Below are positions 2,761 to 6,358 of a stretch of 12,378 nt of DNA, in pieces; within the stretch, counting starts at the first letter, position 1, and each line of letters begins with the position of its first letter. The position numbers and the translations under genes are program-made. This DNA is from Polyangiales bacterium (GTDB taxonomy: Bacteria > Myxococcota_A > Polyangia > Polyangiales > Polyangiaceae), in the NCBI GenBank assembly GCA_038230375.1, contig JBBRNJ010000135.1, positions 1-12,378 on the forward strand. Direction: 5' to 3'. The notes under the pieces are model-generated. The model did not search any database. It was not told the origin of the DNA and saw only the letters and a program-made list of their open reading frames with translations.

Positions 2761-3393
2761 CTAGGCGCCCGACACGTCGATCACGCGCAGGTCGGTGACC
2801 ACCACGTTCACGGCCACGTCGTGCGGCCCCTTCGGGACCTCCATCACCAGCTGGTAGTCGAACGCGACCGCGATCGCGATCGCTGGCGGACAGAAGCGTG
2901 GCAGCGTGCGGTCGTAGTATCCAGCGCCGTAGCCGATGCGATGCCCGATCGGGTCCACGCCGATCGCCGGCACCACGATCACGTCGAGCGCGCGCGCCTC
3001 CTCCGCGTCCGGATGCGGCTCGCAGAAGCCCATGCCACGCTCCTCCAGCGCGGGAGGGTGACTGGCGAAACGAAACGTCATCACCCGCGTGTCCTGATCG
3101 ATGGTGGGATACGCAAGGCGAACGCCGCGCGCCCCAAGCGCATCCCCGAGCGGGCGCAGGTCGACTTCGCGCTTCTCCTCGATGGGCCAGAACAGCGCCA
3201 TGCTCTTTGCCCGAATGATCTCCTCGCGCGCGAGCAGCGCCGCGATGATCTTCTCCGAGCGTTGCCGACATGCCTCGACGGTGGACGTGCGACGCAGCGC
3301 ACGCAGGCGCTTTCGCAGCTCCGCCTTCACCTTGTGCGCGAGCACGCTCTCGGCGGTCGGCTCCTGATCCGCGCCATCGCGGTCGCTGGTCAT
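2761..3393 (-). CDS. ygfA: 5-formyltetrahydrofolate cyclo-ligase (MTHFS/YgfA family), 210 aa.
   Basis: The family signature GYGAGYYDR is present. The overall pattern also fits (...VDLRPL...VRLAYP...FCEP...DVIVVPAIGVDPIGHRIGYGAGYYDRTL...IAVAFDYQLV...D..VNVVVTD). The ATG at 3393-3391 overlaps the methylase stop TGA (3392-3390), an ATGA overlap. The stop is TAG at 2763-2761. Confidence 0.85.
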   Translation of the reverse strand: MTSDRDGADQEPTAESVLAHKVKAELRKRLRALRRTSTVEACRQRSEKIIAALLAREEIIRAKSMALFWPIEEKREVDLRPLGDALGARGVRLAYPTIDQDTRVMTFRFASHPPALEERGMGFCEPHPDAEEARALDVIVVPAIGVDPIGHRIGYGAGYYDRTLPRFCPPAIAIAVAFDYQLVMEVPKGPHDVAVNVVVTDLRVIDVSGA

Positions 3394-4262
3394 GTGCGCG
3401 CTGCCCGCGCGACTGCCTTCTTCTTGCTCTTCTTCTCCGGAGCAAGCAGGTTCTGGACGACGAGCTCGCTGGTGGGGCCGCGACGCTTGGTGTTGGAATT
3501 GATGGAGCGCCGGGCGAGGACGGTGGTGTGTTTGAAGCGCGCGTACAGCGCTTGCGTCTCGATCGTATCGGCGTTGGACAGGACAGCGCCGACGCCGTCG
3601 CTTCGGAGCTTCACCATGGCGTCCACGAGGCGCCTCTGATCCTTCTCGCTGAAGCCACCGCTCGCGTAGGACGTGAAATTGGCGGTCTTCGAGACGGGCA
3701 CGTAGGGCGGGTCGAAGTAGACGAAGTCCTGCGGACCAAGGCCAGGGAGCGCGGAGGCGAAGTCCCCGTGGCGAATGTCGCAGTGAGCGAGCGCCTTGGA
3801 CGCGCGGAGGAGGTTTGGCTCGTCCTTGATCTTGGGGTTCAGCATGCGCCCGAACGGCACGTTGAACTCCCCCTTGGAGTTCACGCGCCAGAGGCCGTTG
3901 AAGCACGTCTTGTTGAGATAGATCAGGCGCGCGCCGCGATCGACATCGCTCATCTTCGACGTCTTCCACGCGCGCACTTCGTAGAACTGTTCCTTGTCGT
4001 AGACGAACTCACCCAGCTTCTTGAGGAGCGCGGACACCTCGCCCTTGATGGCGCGGTAGCAGGCCACGAGCTCCTCGTTCTGGTCGACCAGGATCGCGCG
4101 CTTGAACGGACGCGGCGTCTCCGACGCGAGCGCGAAGAAGACGGCCGCACCACCGGCGAACGGCTCCACATACGTCCGCATCTTCGCGGGAAGGAGCGGA
4201 CGGAGTACTGGCACCAGCCACGATTTTCCGCCCGCCCACTTCACGATCGGCTTCACGTCCAC
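3390..4262 (-). CDS. dam: Dam-family (D12 class) N6-adenine DNA methyltransferase, probably GATC-specific, 290 aa.
   Basis: It matches E. coli Dam block by block. IVKWAGGK aligns with [18 protein letters not shown] aligns with [37 protein letters not shown] aligns with [26 protein letters not shown]. The catalytic DPPY motif is in [27 protein letters not shown] aligns with VRRSISSN. The start is GTG at 4262, with SD AAGGTGG 4 nt upstream (minus-strand sequence taAGGTGGcgcgGTG) and an in-frame TAA just before. Confidence 0.9.
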   Translation of the reverse strand: [290 protein letters not shown]

Positions 4263-4300
4263 CGCGCCACCTTACGCCACATGGCGCGACCTGACGAGCG

Positions 4301-6358
4301 TCAGATGGACTTTGGAATGGCCGCTCCGTTGCGGTGCGCGAGCACGTCCGAGACCGTCTTCTTTGCACCCACGGGGAGCGCGCCAAGGAGCTTCTCGACG
4401 ATCTCCGTGACGCTTCCTCCACCCAGCACCGCGAGCGGGCCGACGTTTGCAGAGAGCTCCGCCGCAAGCTTCTGGTGGCCCAGCGTGGTGAGCGTGGAGA
4501 TGAGCTCCGGCGCCAGCGCAGCCATCTGCTTCTCGAACGCCGCGACCTGCGCCTCGAGCGTCTTGCGACCCAGCTCCGCGCGACGCTCCAGCGCCTGCGC
4601 CTCCGCGTCCCGCTCGATGGTGAGCGCGCGCGCCTCCGCCTCCGCAGCGCCCACGCGCGTGACGCGCTCCACCTCGACCAGCGCCGCCGCGCGACGCTCC
4701 TCCAGGGCGGCACGCGCGCCTTCCACCTCGAGCGCCTTCGCGAGCGCCAGGATCTGCGCGTCGCCCACCTCGCGATCGACCTCGGCACGCAGCCGCTCCT
4801 CGGACAGGCGACGCTCCTCCTCGCGCCGCTTCGCATCGCTCACGATCGCCGCGCGCTGCGCGCCGTCCAGCAGCTTCTTCACGTCCGCGTCCAGGATGCG
4901 CACGTCCAGCACCTCCAGGTCGTAGACCCACATTCCGTTCTCCGTGAACGCGCGCCCGGGCCGTCGCGGCGGTCCTGCGCCCTCGCCTTCCACGTCGCGA
5001 CGCTCTCCCAGGATCGCGGTGCGCAGCATCTCGGTCGCCTCGCGCTGGAACAGCTCGATGCTCGTGGTGCGCGACGCGGCGCGCAATATGGAGCCCGCGT
5101 GATCGCAGAGCAGACCCACGTAGTCCTTCACGTGGAACCAGCGTTGCTTGTCCTGGCCTTCGAACGACACGCGGTAGGACACGGAGATCTGCACCTCCAC
5201 GTGATCGCGCGTGCGCACGGACAGCGTGTCGCTCACCTTGTTGCTCTCCACCTGCAAGAAGCACGTCTCCAGCGTGGTCTCGTCCGACTTCGGGCGACCC
5301 GTGGAAAGGCGAAGCACCGTCAGCTCCTCGTCAAAATCCAGGATGCGCGTCTCCGGTCCCTTCACGACCTCGCGCTTCGTCTTCCCGGTGACGAGCACCG
5401 CGAACCCGGGCGGCACGTTCACCGCCACGGCGCGCATCGGATCGTGCTGCGCAAGGCCGTAGAGCTTCACGCGCTCCGGGGAGAGCAGGCGCGGCACGAT
5501 CTCCTCGCGCGTGGGATCGCACAGGTAGTTCGCGGGGCCCATGATCGTCGCGATGCGGCCCGTGGGGCGATCGCGCACGTAGAGCCCCTCCTTCTCCGCG
5601 ATCGGAACGGGCAGCACCAGACCAATGACCTCCACGTTCTCGTCCGGAAAGAAGTAGCCGTCGCGATCGGCCAGGAACACGTCCGTGCCGGCCGCGTACG
5701 TCCCCGCGGGCAGCGCGTGGCCTTCCTCTGCCATGAGCTGCTTCGTCACGCGCACGTGCAGGCCGCCGGGGCGCGGGAAGCGCGTGGCCTTCCGCACGTA
5801 GCGCCAGCGTCCGGGCAGCACCTCGGCGGGGACCACCTCGAGGCCCGTCCGCGGCACGTAGAACGACACGTCCGCGCCGCGCACGACCAGCTCCGAGCCG
5901 ATGGGATGCGGATCGTCGGGGACGCGGTCGTAGTAGCGCACGATCAGGTACTCGTCCTCGCGCAGGGGATGCCCGTCGATCACGCGCGCGCGCTGACCGG
6001 GCCACAACGGGAACGTCGTCGGCCCTGCCACGACGACCTTGCGACCCACGGCAAGGTCCACCGCCGTGTTGCCGCCACGAATGGGCCGCGCCTCCTTCCC
6101 TTCCACTACGGGGTTCTCGAGCACGATGTACTGCGAGGACGCAGCCGACACGAACGGGCTCACGCCGAAGCTGGGGTCGTCCGCGCGGACAGGGACGAAG
6201 CGGTTCTCGCGCAGCTCCACGATGCGCTCGGTGTTGGAGAGGCTGATCTTGGTGGGCCCGACGTAGAGGACAATGTCGCCCTTCGTCAGATCCTGGACGT
6301 AGGCGTACTCGGAAGGTGCAATGAGGATGTCTCGTTCACGTGCGTCGCGTTCTGTCAT
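4301..6358 (-). CDS. Major vault protein (MVP) homolog, 685 aa. It has an N-terminal MVP repeat region, a shoulder domain, a cap-helix coiled coil and a cap-ring region.
   Basis: Several colinear blocks match human MVP. [37 protein letters not shown] matches [61 protein letters not shown] matches [39 protein letters not shown] matches [61 protein letters not shown] matches [44 protein letters not shown]. A long Ala/Glu/Arg-rich coiled coil then corresponds to the cap helix. I chose the ATG at 6358 as the start, where the recognisable MVP N-terminus begins ([18 protein letters not shown]). The ORF track extends to 6649 through Arg-rich, non-protein-like sequence. The stop is at 4303-4301. Confidence 0.85.
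   Translation of the reverse strand: [685 protein letters not shown]

What the first reader, a model, noticed from the sequence alone, without database searches (positions are those of the whole stretch)
2761..6358. Apparent operon of MVP-like, orphan Dam methylase and 5-formyl-THF cyclo-ligase with tight coupling
All three genes are on the minus strand. The MVP stop and the dam GTG are 38 bp apart, with an AAGGTGG SD. The dam stop and the cyclo-ligase start overlap as ATGA. No partner links a vault-shell protein to a DNA adenine methylase and a folate-salvage enzyme. The methylase or the cyclo-ligase could be co-regulated cargo or client, or the trio could be a horizontally acquired cassette.
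Basis: partly seen in the sequence, partly recalled or inferred. Interest (0 to 1): 0.6.

Follow-up and report, generated by a model that had tools for sequence, protein, structure and literature searches.

The report
Vault-like gene inserted beside dam–folate pair
The three genes are real and tightly packed, but the vault-protein-like gene is a recent lineage-specific insertion, with its own promoter, into an older conserved cluster. Only the DNA methylase and the folate-salvage enzyme are long-standing partners, so no vault–methylase functional link is supported.

Summary
MVP-like (4301-6358), Dam (3390-4262) and 5-formyl-THF cyclo-ligase, MTHFS (2761-3393), all lie on the minus strand. There is a 38-nt gap holding AAGGTGG, and an ATGA stop/start overlap.

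The functional reading fails its own test. Of 51 other genomes with at least 2 kb downstream of an MVP-like gene, none has dam or MTHFS nearby, and neither do 31 viral contigs. The trio occurs only in the window's close relatives (MVP identity 88% or more).

Dam homologues at 47-86% identity sit in a conserved Polyangia array without MVP: ABC ATPase, ABC-2 permease, GldG-like, DUF4340, dam, MTHFS, then convergent fur. The dam/MTHFS ATGA or GTGA overlap holds in 12 of 15 same-strand loci.

The MVP-like gene arrived as a ~2.2-kb block between the DUF4340 stop and the ancestral dam ribosome-binding site. In Labilithrix the same junction holds an unrelated lipoprotein gene. GC3 is uniform, so there is no foreign-cassette signal.

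The block carries a sigma-54-type -24/-12 element. Such an element precedes 51 of 62 MVP-like genes, against a background of 0.05 per 150 nt. Its position implies a near-leaderless mRNA.

Verdict: ordinary juxtaposition, with two modestly interesting by-products.

The parts
10972..12150 (-). ABC transporter ATPase (GldA-like), first gene of the conserved array
   Evidence: Pfam ABC_tran 1e-30. Syntenic in L001 and L063-L070, L072, L081, L180, L181.
10216..10971 (-). ABC-2 family permease
   Evidence: Pfam ABC2_membrane families. It abuts the ATPase stop and overlaps the next gene's start by 4 nt (coordinates).
8588..10219 (-). GldG-like ABC-transporter auxiliary protein
   Evidence: Pfam ABC_transp_aux 9.4e-20 and DUF7088.
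6489..8591 (-). DUF4340 protein. In relatives this gene lies directly upstream of dam.
   Evidence: Pfam DUF4340 9.3e-21. The start GTG 8591 overlaps the GldG-like stop. In L064, L066, L070, L072 and L181 its stop lies 12-40 nt before dam.
4281..6488 (-). Inserted block of about 2.2 kb: a 130-nt upstream region, the MVP-like ORF and about 20 nt of 3' flank. Boundaries are approximate.
   Evidence: Homology with the MVP-less sister locus L064 stops at the DUF4340 C-terminus and resumes at 'tgg(c)gtaaggtg' before dam. A neighbour-joining (NJ) tree places the MVP-bearing loci in one shallow clade.
6428..6442 (-). Palindrome GCTCCACAACGGAGC, a candidate binding site for a sigma-54 enhancer-binding protein (EBP)
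   Evidence: Similar inverted repeats or a TTNGGNGC motif lie 40-90 nt upstream of the -24 element in many loci. TTNGGNGC occurs in 23 of 51 loci against 2.4% expected, but the pattern was chosen after seeing the data.
6371..6386 (-). Sigma-54-type -24/-12 promoter-like element CGGCACGGCGCCTGCT. The predicted transcription start is near 6360, 2 nt before the ATG.
   Evidence: GG and GC are invariant in the 9-locus alignment. 51 of 62 loci have a site scoring at least 8 of 11, against a background of 0.05 per 150 nt. About 20 loci share the same 28-29 nt distance from the element's first base to the ATG. There is no SD before ATG 6358.
4301..6358 (-). MVP-like protein, 685 aa: beta-repeat region, SPFH-like shoulder and a long cap-type helix
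   Evidence: Pfam. phmmer against PDB MVP gives 5e-28 over query residues 200-606. The AlphaFold2 model has a helix at 491-623 and pLDDT 61. Foldseek top hits are vault MVPs at E about 1e-26, followed by SPFH proteins.
4267..4273 (-). AAGGTGG, the dam ribosome-binding site. It is ancestral and predates the MVP insertion.
   Evidence: TAAGGTG is present upstream of dam in the MVP-less loci L064, L066 and L070, directly after the DUF4340 stop.
3390..4262 (-). Orphan Dam-family N6-adenine DNA methyltransferase, probably GATC-specific
   Evidence: TIGR00571 2e-77, above cut-off. The closest solved structures are DpnM 2DPM (1.8e-58) and E. coli Dam (2e-35), both GATC enzymes. The FAGG and DPPY motifs are present. 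No endonuclease gene is adjacent in any syntenic locus.
3390..3393 (-). ATGA overlap of the dam stop and the MTHFS start (translational coupling)
   Evidence: Sequence. ATGA or GTGA overlap is conserved in 12 of 15 same-strand loci.
2761..3393 (-). 5-formyltetrahydrofolate cyclo-ligase (MTHFS)
   Evidence: TIGR02727 equivalog 6.1e-41, above cut-off. Pfam 1.2e-31.
2336..2758 (+). Fur-family regulator, convergent with MTHFS; it marks the end of the array
   Evidence: Pfam FUR 1.3e-36. The convergent position is conserved in L001, L064, L065, L070, L073, L076, L081, L180 and L181.

Best explanation
The window comes from a high-GC Polyangia-type myxobacterium and holds a conserved six-gene array that ends against a convergent fur gene. 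The array is ABC ATPase, ABC-2 permease, GldG-like protein, DUF4340 protein, dam and MTHFS. Their reading frames overlap by ATGA or GTGA, so ribosomes finishing dam can re-initiate on MTHFS (translational coupling; inferred). In the recent ancestor of the window's species group, a block of about 2.2 kb landed in the short spacer between the DUF4340 stop codon and the pre-existing dam ribosome-binding site. The block holds one gene, the MVP-like protein, with about 130 nt of its own upstream region. That upstream region contains a sigma-54-type -24/-12 element and an upstream palindrome, features that accompany MVP-like genes across Myxococcota wherever they sit. The element is placed so that transcription would start about 2 nt before the ATG, giving a near-leaderless mRNA, which fits the absence of an SD (inferred). 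Because no terminator is detectable after the MVP-like gene, dam and MTHFS may now also be transcribed by read-through from that promoter (inferred, untested). The three-gene 'operon' is therefore a young structural accident rather than a functional module. Nothing indicates that Dam or MTHFS is a cargo or client of a vault-like particle.
For: (1) Of 62 genomes with an MVP-like gene, only L001 (96% identical MVP) has dam or MTHFS within 10 kb. tblastn even at E<0.05 finds none of the window's other genes in the remaining loci, and 51 of those loci have at least 2 kb of downstream flank. The trio persists at 88% MVP identity (L063). It is gone at 74%, where MVP is followed by an unknown 449-aa gene and a YchJ-like gene. 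(2) Dam homologues at 86, 70, 64, 61, 59, 57 and 52-47% identity lie in the ABC, permease, GldG, DUF4340, dam, MTHFS array without MVP. (3) An NJ tree of five shared proteins gives ((window,L001),L063),L064, with all outgroups lacking MVP. (4) The boundaries are clean. Homology to L064 ends at the DUF4340 C-terminus and resumes at the TAAGGTG dam RBS, which directly follows the DUF4340 stop in L066 and L070. (5) The same junction carries an unrelated 382-aa lipoprotein gene in Labilithrix L180 and L081, 89% identical to each other. (6) The sigma-54-like element is invariant at GG and GC in a 9-locus alignment that is otherwise 36% identical. It is present in 51 of 62 loci against 0.05 expected per 150 nt. 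About 20 loci share a fixed 28-29 nt distance to the ATG. (7) No gene family recurs next to MVP-like genes apart from scattered Ser/Thr kinases. (8) GC3 is 0.86-0.89 for MVP, dam, MTHFS and the ABC genes. (9) No sigma-70-like promoter or intrinsic terminator lies in the spacers, and the MVP-dam spacer is not unusually structured, z = -1.1.
Against: All comparison sequences are metagenome bins or contigs. I could not confirm that MVP-less loci such as L064 come from genomes that keep an MVP-like gene elsewhere, or whether the window's genome has a second copy. The branch uniting window, L001 and L063 against L064 is short and has no bootstrap support. An ancestral presence with loss in L064 cannot be excluded for that node alone, although the deeper outgroups argue against it. 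The sigma-54 element is a consensus match with C instead of T at two positions. rpoN and an activator gene are not in the window, and no transcript data exist. No transposase, target-site duplication or terminal repeats mark the insertion, so the mechanism of relocation is unknown. Retention of the trio across 88-100% identity is compatible with, but does not require, a newly acquired benefit.
Confidence: 0.8

Rival explanations
1. One reading: the three genes form a functional operon in which Dam and/or MTHFS are co-regulated partners, cargo or clients of a vault-like shell.
For: The genes share a strand, with a 38-nt gap and an ATGA overlap. No terminator is detectable. The arrangement is retained in three contigs at 88-100% MVP identity.
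Against: None of 51 other genomes and none of 31 viral contigs shows the linkage. dam-MTHFS is conserved without MVP. MVP carries its own conserved promoter-like element. The same junction holds an unrelated lipoprotein gene in Labilithrix. Dam and MTHFS show no extension or targeting peptide relative to homologues from MVP-less loci (alignment A2).
Confidence: 0.05
2. The trio, or the dam-MTHFS pair, is a horizontally acquired cassette.
For: Dam-family genes are often mobile or phage-borne. MVP-like genes occur in IMG/VR viral contigs at 28-39% identity.
Against: The flanking genes (ABC, GldG, DUF4340, fur, PAP2) and dam-MTHFS are collinear across relatives down to about 47-60% identity, including Pendulispora albinea. 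GC3 and codon usage are uniform. There is no plasmid match and no integrase or repeats. MVP divergence tracks that of neighbouring genes: 96% and 88% for MVP against 93% and 85% for Dam.
Confidence: 0.07
3. The MVP-like gene is ancestral at this position and was lost repeatedly in the other lineages.
For: The L064 lineage is nearly equidistant from the window and from L063, so a single loss there is possible.
Against: This would require losses in every deeper lineage sampled (L066, L068-L073, L077, L081, L180, L181, L067). It would also require each loss to restore a short DUF4340-dam spacer carrying the same TAAGGTG element. In other genomes MVP-like genes sit at many different loci with the same promoter element.
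Confidence: 0.06
4. dam belongs to a restriction-modification or other defence system rather than being an orphan housekeeping methylase.
For: The best PADLOC match is a Type II methyltransferase model at 3e-87, slightly ahead of the orphan-methyltransferase model at 1.6e-80. The closest solved structure is DpnM, from the DpnII restriction-modification system.
Against: No endonuclease-like gene is adjacent in the window or in any of about 18 syntenic loci. The neighbours are always DUF4340 (or an insert) and MTHFS. The chromosomal position is stable over deep divergence. GATC is not avoided in the window: 115 observed against 37.5 expected from base composition.
Confidence: 0.1

Closest known systems
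Bacterial MVP homologues (Myxococcales, Cytophagales, Oscillatoriales) described in silico by Sokolskyi 2019 (bioRxiv 10.1101/872010), and eukaryotic major vault protein (e.g. rat vault 4V60)
   Same: It has an MVP shoulder domain, a Vault_3 repeat and a long C-terminal helix. Sequence and fold matches to solved vault MVPs are clear. It falls in the 'chemotrophic' bacterial clade with a band-7/SPFH-like shoulder that the preprint describes.
   Different: It is 685 aa against about 860-890 aa, so it probably has fewer N-terminal repeats. No vPARP, TEP1 or vault RNA context is present. Assembly into a closed shell has not been shown for any bacterial homologue. The preprint gives no genomic context or regulation, and the sigma-54-type element and single-gene behaviour reported here were not found in the searched literature.
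E. coli dam within the aroK-aroB-damX-dam-rpe-gph-trpS operon (from my own knowledge of the literature)
   Same: An orphan GATC Dam-family methylase sits at a fixed chromosomal position and is co-transcribed with functionally unrelated housekeeping genes.
   Different: The neighbours differ: here an ABC/GldG/DUF4340 transporter cluster upstream and MTHFS downstream with overlapping codons. The protein is closer to DpnM than to EcoDam. The clade is Polyangia, not Gammaproteobacteria.
E. coli ygfA (fau), the MTHFS gene co-transcribed downstream of ssrS 6S RNA (from my own knowledge)
   Same: MTHFS is the promoter-distal gene of an operon whose upstream member has no folate function.
   Different: No 6S RNA or any other Rfam family lies upstream here. 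The upstream partner is dam, with translational coupling.
Sigma-54 (RpoN) promoters with upstream enhancer-binding-protein sites, abundant in Myxococcus xanthus (from my own knowledge)
   Same: It has the GG-N10-GC architecture matching TGGCAC-N5-TTGCA and an upstream inverted repeat at a suitable distance.
   Different: The predicted start lies only about 2 nt before the start codon in the window's group of loci (28-29 nt spacing, Polyangia- and Archangium-type bins), giving a leaderless-type mRNA. This is unusual for described sigma-54 promoters. Function is untested.

Membership tests
Major vault protein (MVP) family | MVP shoulder domain | tested here: met
   Pfam PF11978 at 81.9 bits against a cut-off of 25, covering residues 373-490.
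Major vault protein (MVP) family | Tandem MVP repeat domains in the N-terminal half (nine in eukaryotic MVP) | tested here: inconclusive
   Vault_3 scores 34.2 bits, above its 28.8 cut-off. Vault_2 scores 18.6 bits, below its 23.6 cut-off. The AF2 model shows beta-rich repeats over residues 1-350 but at pLDDT 33-60. Foldseek matches murine MVP repeats R1-R7 at E about 2e-10. The repeat number was not resolved, and the protein is about 200 aa shorter than eukaryotic MVP.
Major vault protein (MVP) family | Long cap-helix after the shoulder that drives oligomerisation | tested here: met
   A helix is predicted at 491-623. The phmmer alignment to rat and human MVP extends through residues 640-778 of MVP. 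This is a prediction only.
Major vault protein (MVP) family | Assembly into a closed vault shell that encloses cargo | not testable with these tools
   This needs expression followed by EM. No bacterial homologue has been shown to assemble, as far as the searched literature goes.
Dam family (D12 class, alpha-group N6-adenine DNA methyltransferase, GATC) | Family profile above the curated cut-off, with SAM-binding FxGxG and catalytic DPPY motifs | tested here: met
   TIGR00571 at 260.5 bits against a cut-off of 114.85. PF02086 at 4.8e-56. 'EPFAGGAA' and 'FDPPY' are present in the translation.
Dam family (D12 class, alpha-group N6-adenine DNA methyltransferase, GATC) | GATC specificity | tested here: inconclusive
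   The closest solved relatives, DpnM and EcoDam, are both GATC enzymes. The NGLxRxN...FNVPFGR recognition segment aligns with them. No methylome data are available.
Orphan (solitary) methyltransferase | No cognate restriction endonuclease gene adjacent; conserved chromosomal position | tested here: met
   The neighbours are the MVP-like or DUF4340 gene and MTHFS in the window and in about 18 syntenic loci. An endonuclease elsewhere in the genome cannot be excluded.
5-formyltetrahydrofolate cyclo-ligase (MTHFS) | Equivalog-level profile match over the full length | tested here: met
   TIGR02727 at 140.3 bits against a cut-off of 84.9, covering residues 23-200.
Operon (single transcription unit MVP-dam-MTHFS) | Same strand, short gaps, no intervening terminator or promoter | tested here: met
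   The gaps are 38 nt and -4 nt. No terminator-like or sigma-70-like site lies in the spacers. These consensus scans are weak evidence in a 67% GC genome.
Operon (single transcription unit MVP-dam-MTHFS) | Demonstrated co-transcription | not testable with these tools
   Needs RNA-seq or RT-PCR.
Conserved functional gene cluster (MVP with dam/MTHFS) | Linkage recurs across distantly related genomes | tested here: not met
   None of 51 informative genome loci and none of 31 viral loci shows the linkage. It occurs only in three contigs at 88% MVP identity or more.
Conserved functional gene cluster (dam with MTHFS) | Linkage and coupling recur across distantly related genomes | tested here: met
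   Same-strand adjacency is seen in 17 loci, at Dam identities from 47% to 96% to the window's enzyme. The stop/start overlap is seen in 12 of the 15 examined. The exception is Pendulispora, where dam is inverted between the DUF4340-like gene and MTHFS.
Sigma-54-dependent promoter | GG at -24 and GC at -12 with fixed spacing, conserved among orthologous upstream regions | tested here: met
   51 of 62 loci against 0.05 expected per 150 nt.
Sigma-54-dependent promoter | Dependence on RpoN and an enhancer-binding ATPase | not testable with these tools
   No rpoN or activator gene lies in the window, and there are no expression data.

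The most novel reading that the evidence does not exclude
MVP-like genes of Myxococcota may be self-contained, sigma-54/activator-controlled and (in the window's group) leaderless single-gene units that relocate with their promoter. In this lineage the insertion would then have placed the chromosome's orphan GATC methylase and MTHFS downstream of a signal-dependent sigma-54 promoter. DNA adenine methylation capacity would be rewired to whatever signal induces the vault-like protein. A further possibility is that the deeply conserved, translationally coupled dam-MTHFS pair is a real one-carbon/methylation module in Polyangia.
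Probability: 0.25. Interest if true: 0.55.

Novelty: new member of a known kind. Interest (0 to 1): 0.3.

Why it matters
For the finding as posed, the value is negative but clean. It removes a tempting 'vault shell plus methylase cargo' story and shows that the adjacency is a recent insertion.

Two by-products could be useful.

1. Bacterial MVP homologues have no known function or regulation. A conserved sigma-54-type promoter and upstream motif give a concrete handle: find the activator and its inducing signal.

2. Polyangia appear to have a positionally conserved orphan Dam, coupled to MTHFS behind a GldG-type ABC/DUF4340 operon. This suggests a lineage-wide GATC methylation system outside the Gammaproteobacteria, which methylome sequencing could check.

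Tried and rejected
- Rfam scan of the whole window at E<=1 found no 6S RNA or other family that could tie MTHFS to an ssrS-type arrangement. It gave only two sub-threshold chance hits outside the genes.
- The search for mobile-element scars around the insertion found no terminal inverted repeats or target-site duplication. One 16-nt direct repeat (4323-4338 and 6428-6443, 14 of 16 matching) lies inside the block. I treated it as a probable chance match to the palindrome motif.
- The 8-nt similarity after the two stop codons (CGCTgGTC and CGCTcGTC) is absent from L001, so I dismissed it.
- There is no plasmid homologue of the MVP-like protein.
- Viral-contig MVP homologues are distant (28-39% identity) and lack dam and MTHFS.
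- PADLOC gives no defence-system hit for MVP or MTHFS.
- Clustering all ORFs within 10 kb of 63 MVP loci found no recurrent partner. The only widespread cluster is Ser/Thr kinases at variable positions.
- The preprint's suggested link to gliding motility looked interesting, because a GldA/F/G-like cluster lies upstream. That adjacency is also confined to this clade.
- The AF2 model was only moderate (pLDDT 61), so I did not use it to count repeats.
- Literature searches for a dam-MTHFS linkage, a myxobacterial GATC methylome, or MVP in Myxococcus found nothing relevant.

Full report
**Observation.** On the minus strand the MVP-like ORF runs from ATG 6358 to TGA 4301-4303. dam starts at GTG 4262, 38 nt later, with AAGGTGG at 4267-4273. 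The dam TGA and the ATG of the cyclo-ligase overlap as ATGA at 3390-3393, and the cyclo-ligase ends at 2761. A second in-frame GTG at 4256 is an equally plausible dam start. The gene identities hold:
- MVP-like: Pfam MVP_shoulder 4.6e-23 and Vault_3.
- dam: MethyltransfD12 4.8e-56 and TIGR00571 above its cut-off.
- MTHFS: 5-FTHF_cyc-lig 1.2e-31 and TIGR02727 above its cut-off.

The MVP-like protein matches solved vault MVPs by sequence (5e-28). A moderate AlphaFold2 model (pLDDT 61) matches them by fold at E about 1e-26, ahead of SPFH proteins. The methylase is closest to DpnM and E. coli Dam, both GATC enzymes.

**Surroundings.** Every gene from 12150 down to 2761 is on the minus strand and tightly packed. 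The order is ABC ATPase, ABC-2 permease, GldG-like auxiliary protein, DUF4340 protein, MVP-like, dam and MTHFS. A convergent fur gene ends 2 nt from the MTHFS stop, and a PAP2 gene follows. The window is 63-74% GC throughout. GC3 is 0.86-0.93 in all genes except PAP2 (0.79), and 0.86-0.89 in MVP, dam and MTHFS.

The MVP-like protein has hundreds of homologues, mostly in Myxococcota. A scan of one genome per species returned 62 loci.
- tblastn with all the window's proteins found dam, MTHFS and the other neighbours only in L001, whose MVP is 96% identical.
- Relaxing to E<0.05 added nothing.
- 51 of the other loci have at least 2 kb downstream of the MVP-like gene.
- A contig with an 88% identical MVP (L063) keeps the whole arrangement.
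- A contig with a 74% identical MVP has unrelated neighbours.
- Thirty-one viral contigs with distant MVP homologues also lack dam and MTHFS.
- Clustering every ORF around the 63 loci found no recurrent partner except scattered Ser/Thr kinases.

The MVP-like gene therefore behaves as a stand-alone gene.

**What is conserved instead.** Starting from the methylase, homologues at 86%, 70% and 61% identity lie in the same array of ABC ATPase, permease, GldG-like, DUF4340, dam and MTHFS. Convergent fur and PAP2 often follow. There is no MVP-like gene between DUF4340 and dam.
- The same holds for a Polyangiaceae genome.
- It holds for eight metagenome contigs at 47-64% Dam identity.
- It holds for a further long contig reached from MTHFS (L181). 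The Labilithrix contig reached the same way, L180, keeps the array but carries an insert between DUF4340 and dam, described below.
- In Pendulispora albinea the three neighbours are still together, but dam is inverted between the DUF4340-like gene and MTHFS.
- Among 15 same-strand loci examined, the dam stop overlaps the MTHFS start as ATGA or GTGA in 12.

The conserved, translationally coupled unit is dam-MTHFS, attached to the transporter/DUF4340 genes.

**The MVP-like gene is an insertion.**
- A neighbour-joining tree of five shared proteins gives ((window,L001),L063),L064, with all deeper lineages lacking MVP. The branch is short and has no bootstrap support.
- Aligning the junctions shows that homology with the MVP-less sister L064 stops at the DUF4340 C-terminus and resumes at 'tggtaaggtg' just before dam.
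- The TAAGGTG element directly follows the DUF4340 stop in L066 and L070.
- The inserted block is about 2.2 kb: 130 nt of upstream region, the ORF and about 20 nt.
- No transposase, terminal repeats or duplication mark it. Its composition is native. Its divergence tracks that of the neighbouring genes. This pattern favours relocation within the lineage over import.
- The same junction holds an unrelated 382-aa lipoprotein gene in Labilithrix L180 and L081. The site evidently tolerates insertions.

**A promoter travels with the gene.** I aligned the upstream regions of nine MVP-like genes from different genomic contexts. The only invariant positions form CGGCACG-N4-xTGC, the GG-N10-GC architecture of sigma-54 promoters.
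- A strict pattern occurs upstream of 29 of 62 genes, against 0.005 expected.
- A score of at least 8 of 11 to TGGCAC-N5-TTGCA, with GG and GC required, occurs in 51 of 62, against 0.05 per 150 nt.
- The loci lacking it are mostly bins labelled outside Myxococcota.
- In the window the element is at 6371-6386. About 20 loci share the same 28-29 nt distance from its first base to the ATG.
- That distance puts the predicted start about 2 nt before the start codon. This matches the absence of any Shine-Dalgarno there and implies a near-leaderless mRNA (inference).
- An upstream palindrome (6428-6442) and a related TTNGGNGC motif recur 40-90 nt upstream: 23 of 51 loci against 2.4% expected, with the pattern chosen post hoc. 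This is a candidate activator site.

I found no report of this in the searched literature, which describes bacterial MVP homologues only at the protein level.

**Transcription in the window.** No sigma-70-like promoter and no intrinsic terminator were found on the minus strand in the spacers. The MVP-dam spacer is not unusually structured. Read-through from the MVP promoter and/or the upstream transporter genes into dam-MTHFS is therefore plausible but untested. These scans carry little weight in a high-GC genome.

**Mechanism and comparison with known systems.**
- Shown: gene identities, junction geometry, the restricted distribution of the trio, the wide conservation of dam-MTHFS, the insertion boundaries and the conservation of the promoter-like element.
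- Inferred: translational coupling, GATC specificity, sigma-54 dependence, the leaderless start and read-through.

The closest precedent for the methylase is E. coli dam, an orphan enzyme embedded in an operon of unrelated housekeeping genes. The closest precedent for MTHFS is E. coli ygfA, the distal gene behind ssrS. Both comparisons rest on my own knowledge of the literature. No 6S RNA is present here. A one-carbon rationale for the dam-MTHFS pairing (folate pool, methionine, SAM) is possible but purely speculative.

**Verdict.** The locus is a new example of known kinds of genes brought together by a recent insertion. Interest is low for the finding as posed. The conserved sigma-54-type promoter of bacterial MVP-like genes and the positionally conserved, MTHFS-coupled orphan Dam of Polyangia are modestly interesting.

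Noticed in passing
window 6371-6386 (-), and upstream of MVP-like genes in L001-L062: A sigma-54-type -24/-12 element is conserved upstream of MVP-like genes across Myxococcota: 51 of 62 loci against 0.05 expected per 150 nt. About 20 loci share a fixed 28-29 nt distance to the ATG, which implies a near-leaderless mRNA. I did not find this in the searched literature.
   Followed up: partly
window 6428-6442 (-); equivalent positions in L001, L009, L010, L060 and others: A palindrome GCTCC-N5-GGAGC, or a TTNGGNGC motif, lies 40-90 nt upstream of the -24 element. It is about 18-fold enriched, but the pattern was chosen post hoc. It is a candidate enhancer-binding-protein site.
   Followed up: partly
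L180 6782-7930 and L081 about 8548-9699: In Labilithrix-type contigs a 382-aa lipoprotein with no Pfam match sits between DUF4340 and dam, in exactly the junction the MVP-like gene occupies in the window. The two copies are 89% identical. The junction looks like a recurrent insertion site.
   Followed up: partly
L067 (Pendulispora albinea CP089984.1, 9223562-9240428): dam lies on the opposite strand between the DUF4340-like gene and MTHFS, and MTHFS is followed by RNase Y. The neighbourhood is conserved but the dam-MTHFS co-orientation is not universal.
   Followed up: no
whole window: GATC occurs 115 times against 37.5 expected from mononucleotide composition, and it is enriched in every long gene. 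I did not correct for codon or dinucleotide bias, so the meaning is unclear. It is at least not avoided.
   Followed up: no
window 6489-12150 (-): The four upstream genes (ABC ATPase, ABC-2 permease, GldG-like, DUF4340) are themselves joined by 0-nt or 4-nt overlaps. In MVP-less relatives they continue into dam within 12-60 nt, which suggests an ancestral six-gene unit linking a GldG-type transporter to dam-MTHFS.
   Followed up: partly
window 1-1211 (-): A partial gene runs off the left end of the window. It is 65% identical to a 427-aa secreted or lipoprotein-like protein with no Pfam match that occupies the same position after PAP2 in L064.
   Followed up: partly
L149-L179 (IMG/VR contigs): Full-length but distant MVP-like genes (28-39% identity) occur on 31 large viral-classified contigs with GC from 25% to 64%. 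This agrees with a 2023 preprint reporting phage MVPs.
   Followed up: no
L005, L007, L012, L018, L044, L049, L050: MVP-like genes in bins labelled Planctomycetota, Acidobacteriota, Blastocatellia or 'Clostridia' lack the sigma-54-like element, and some have AT-rich upstream regions. These are either genuine transfers to other phyla or mis-binned contigs.
   Followed up: no
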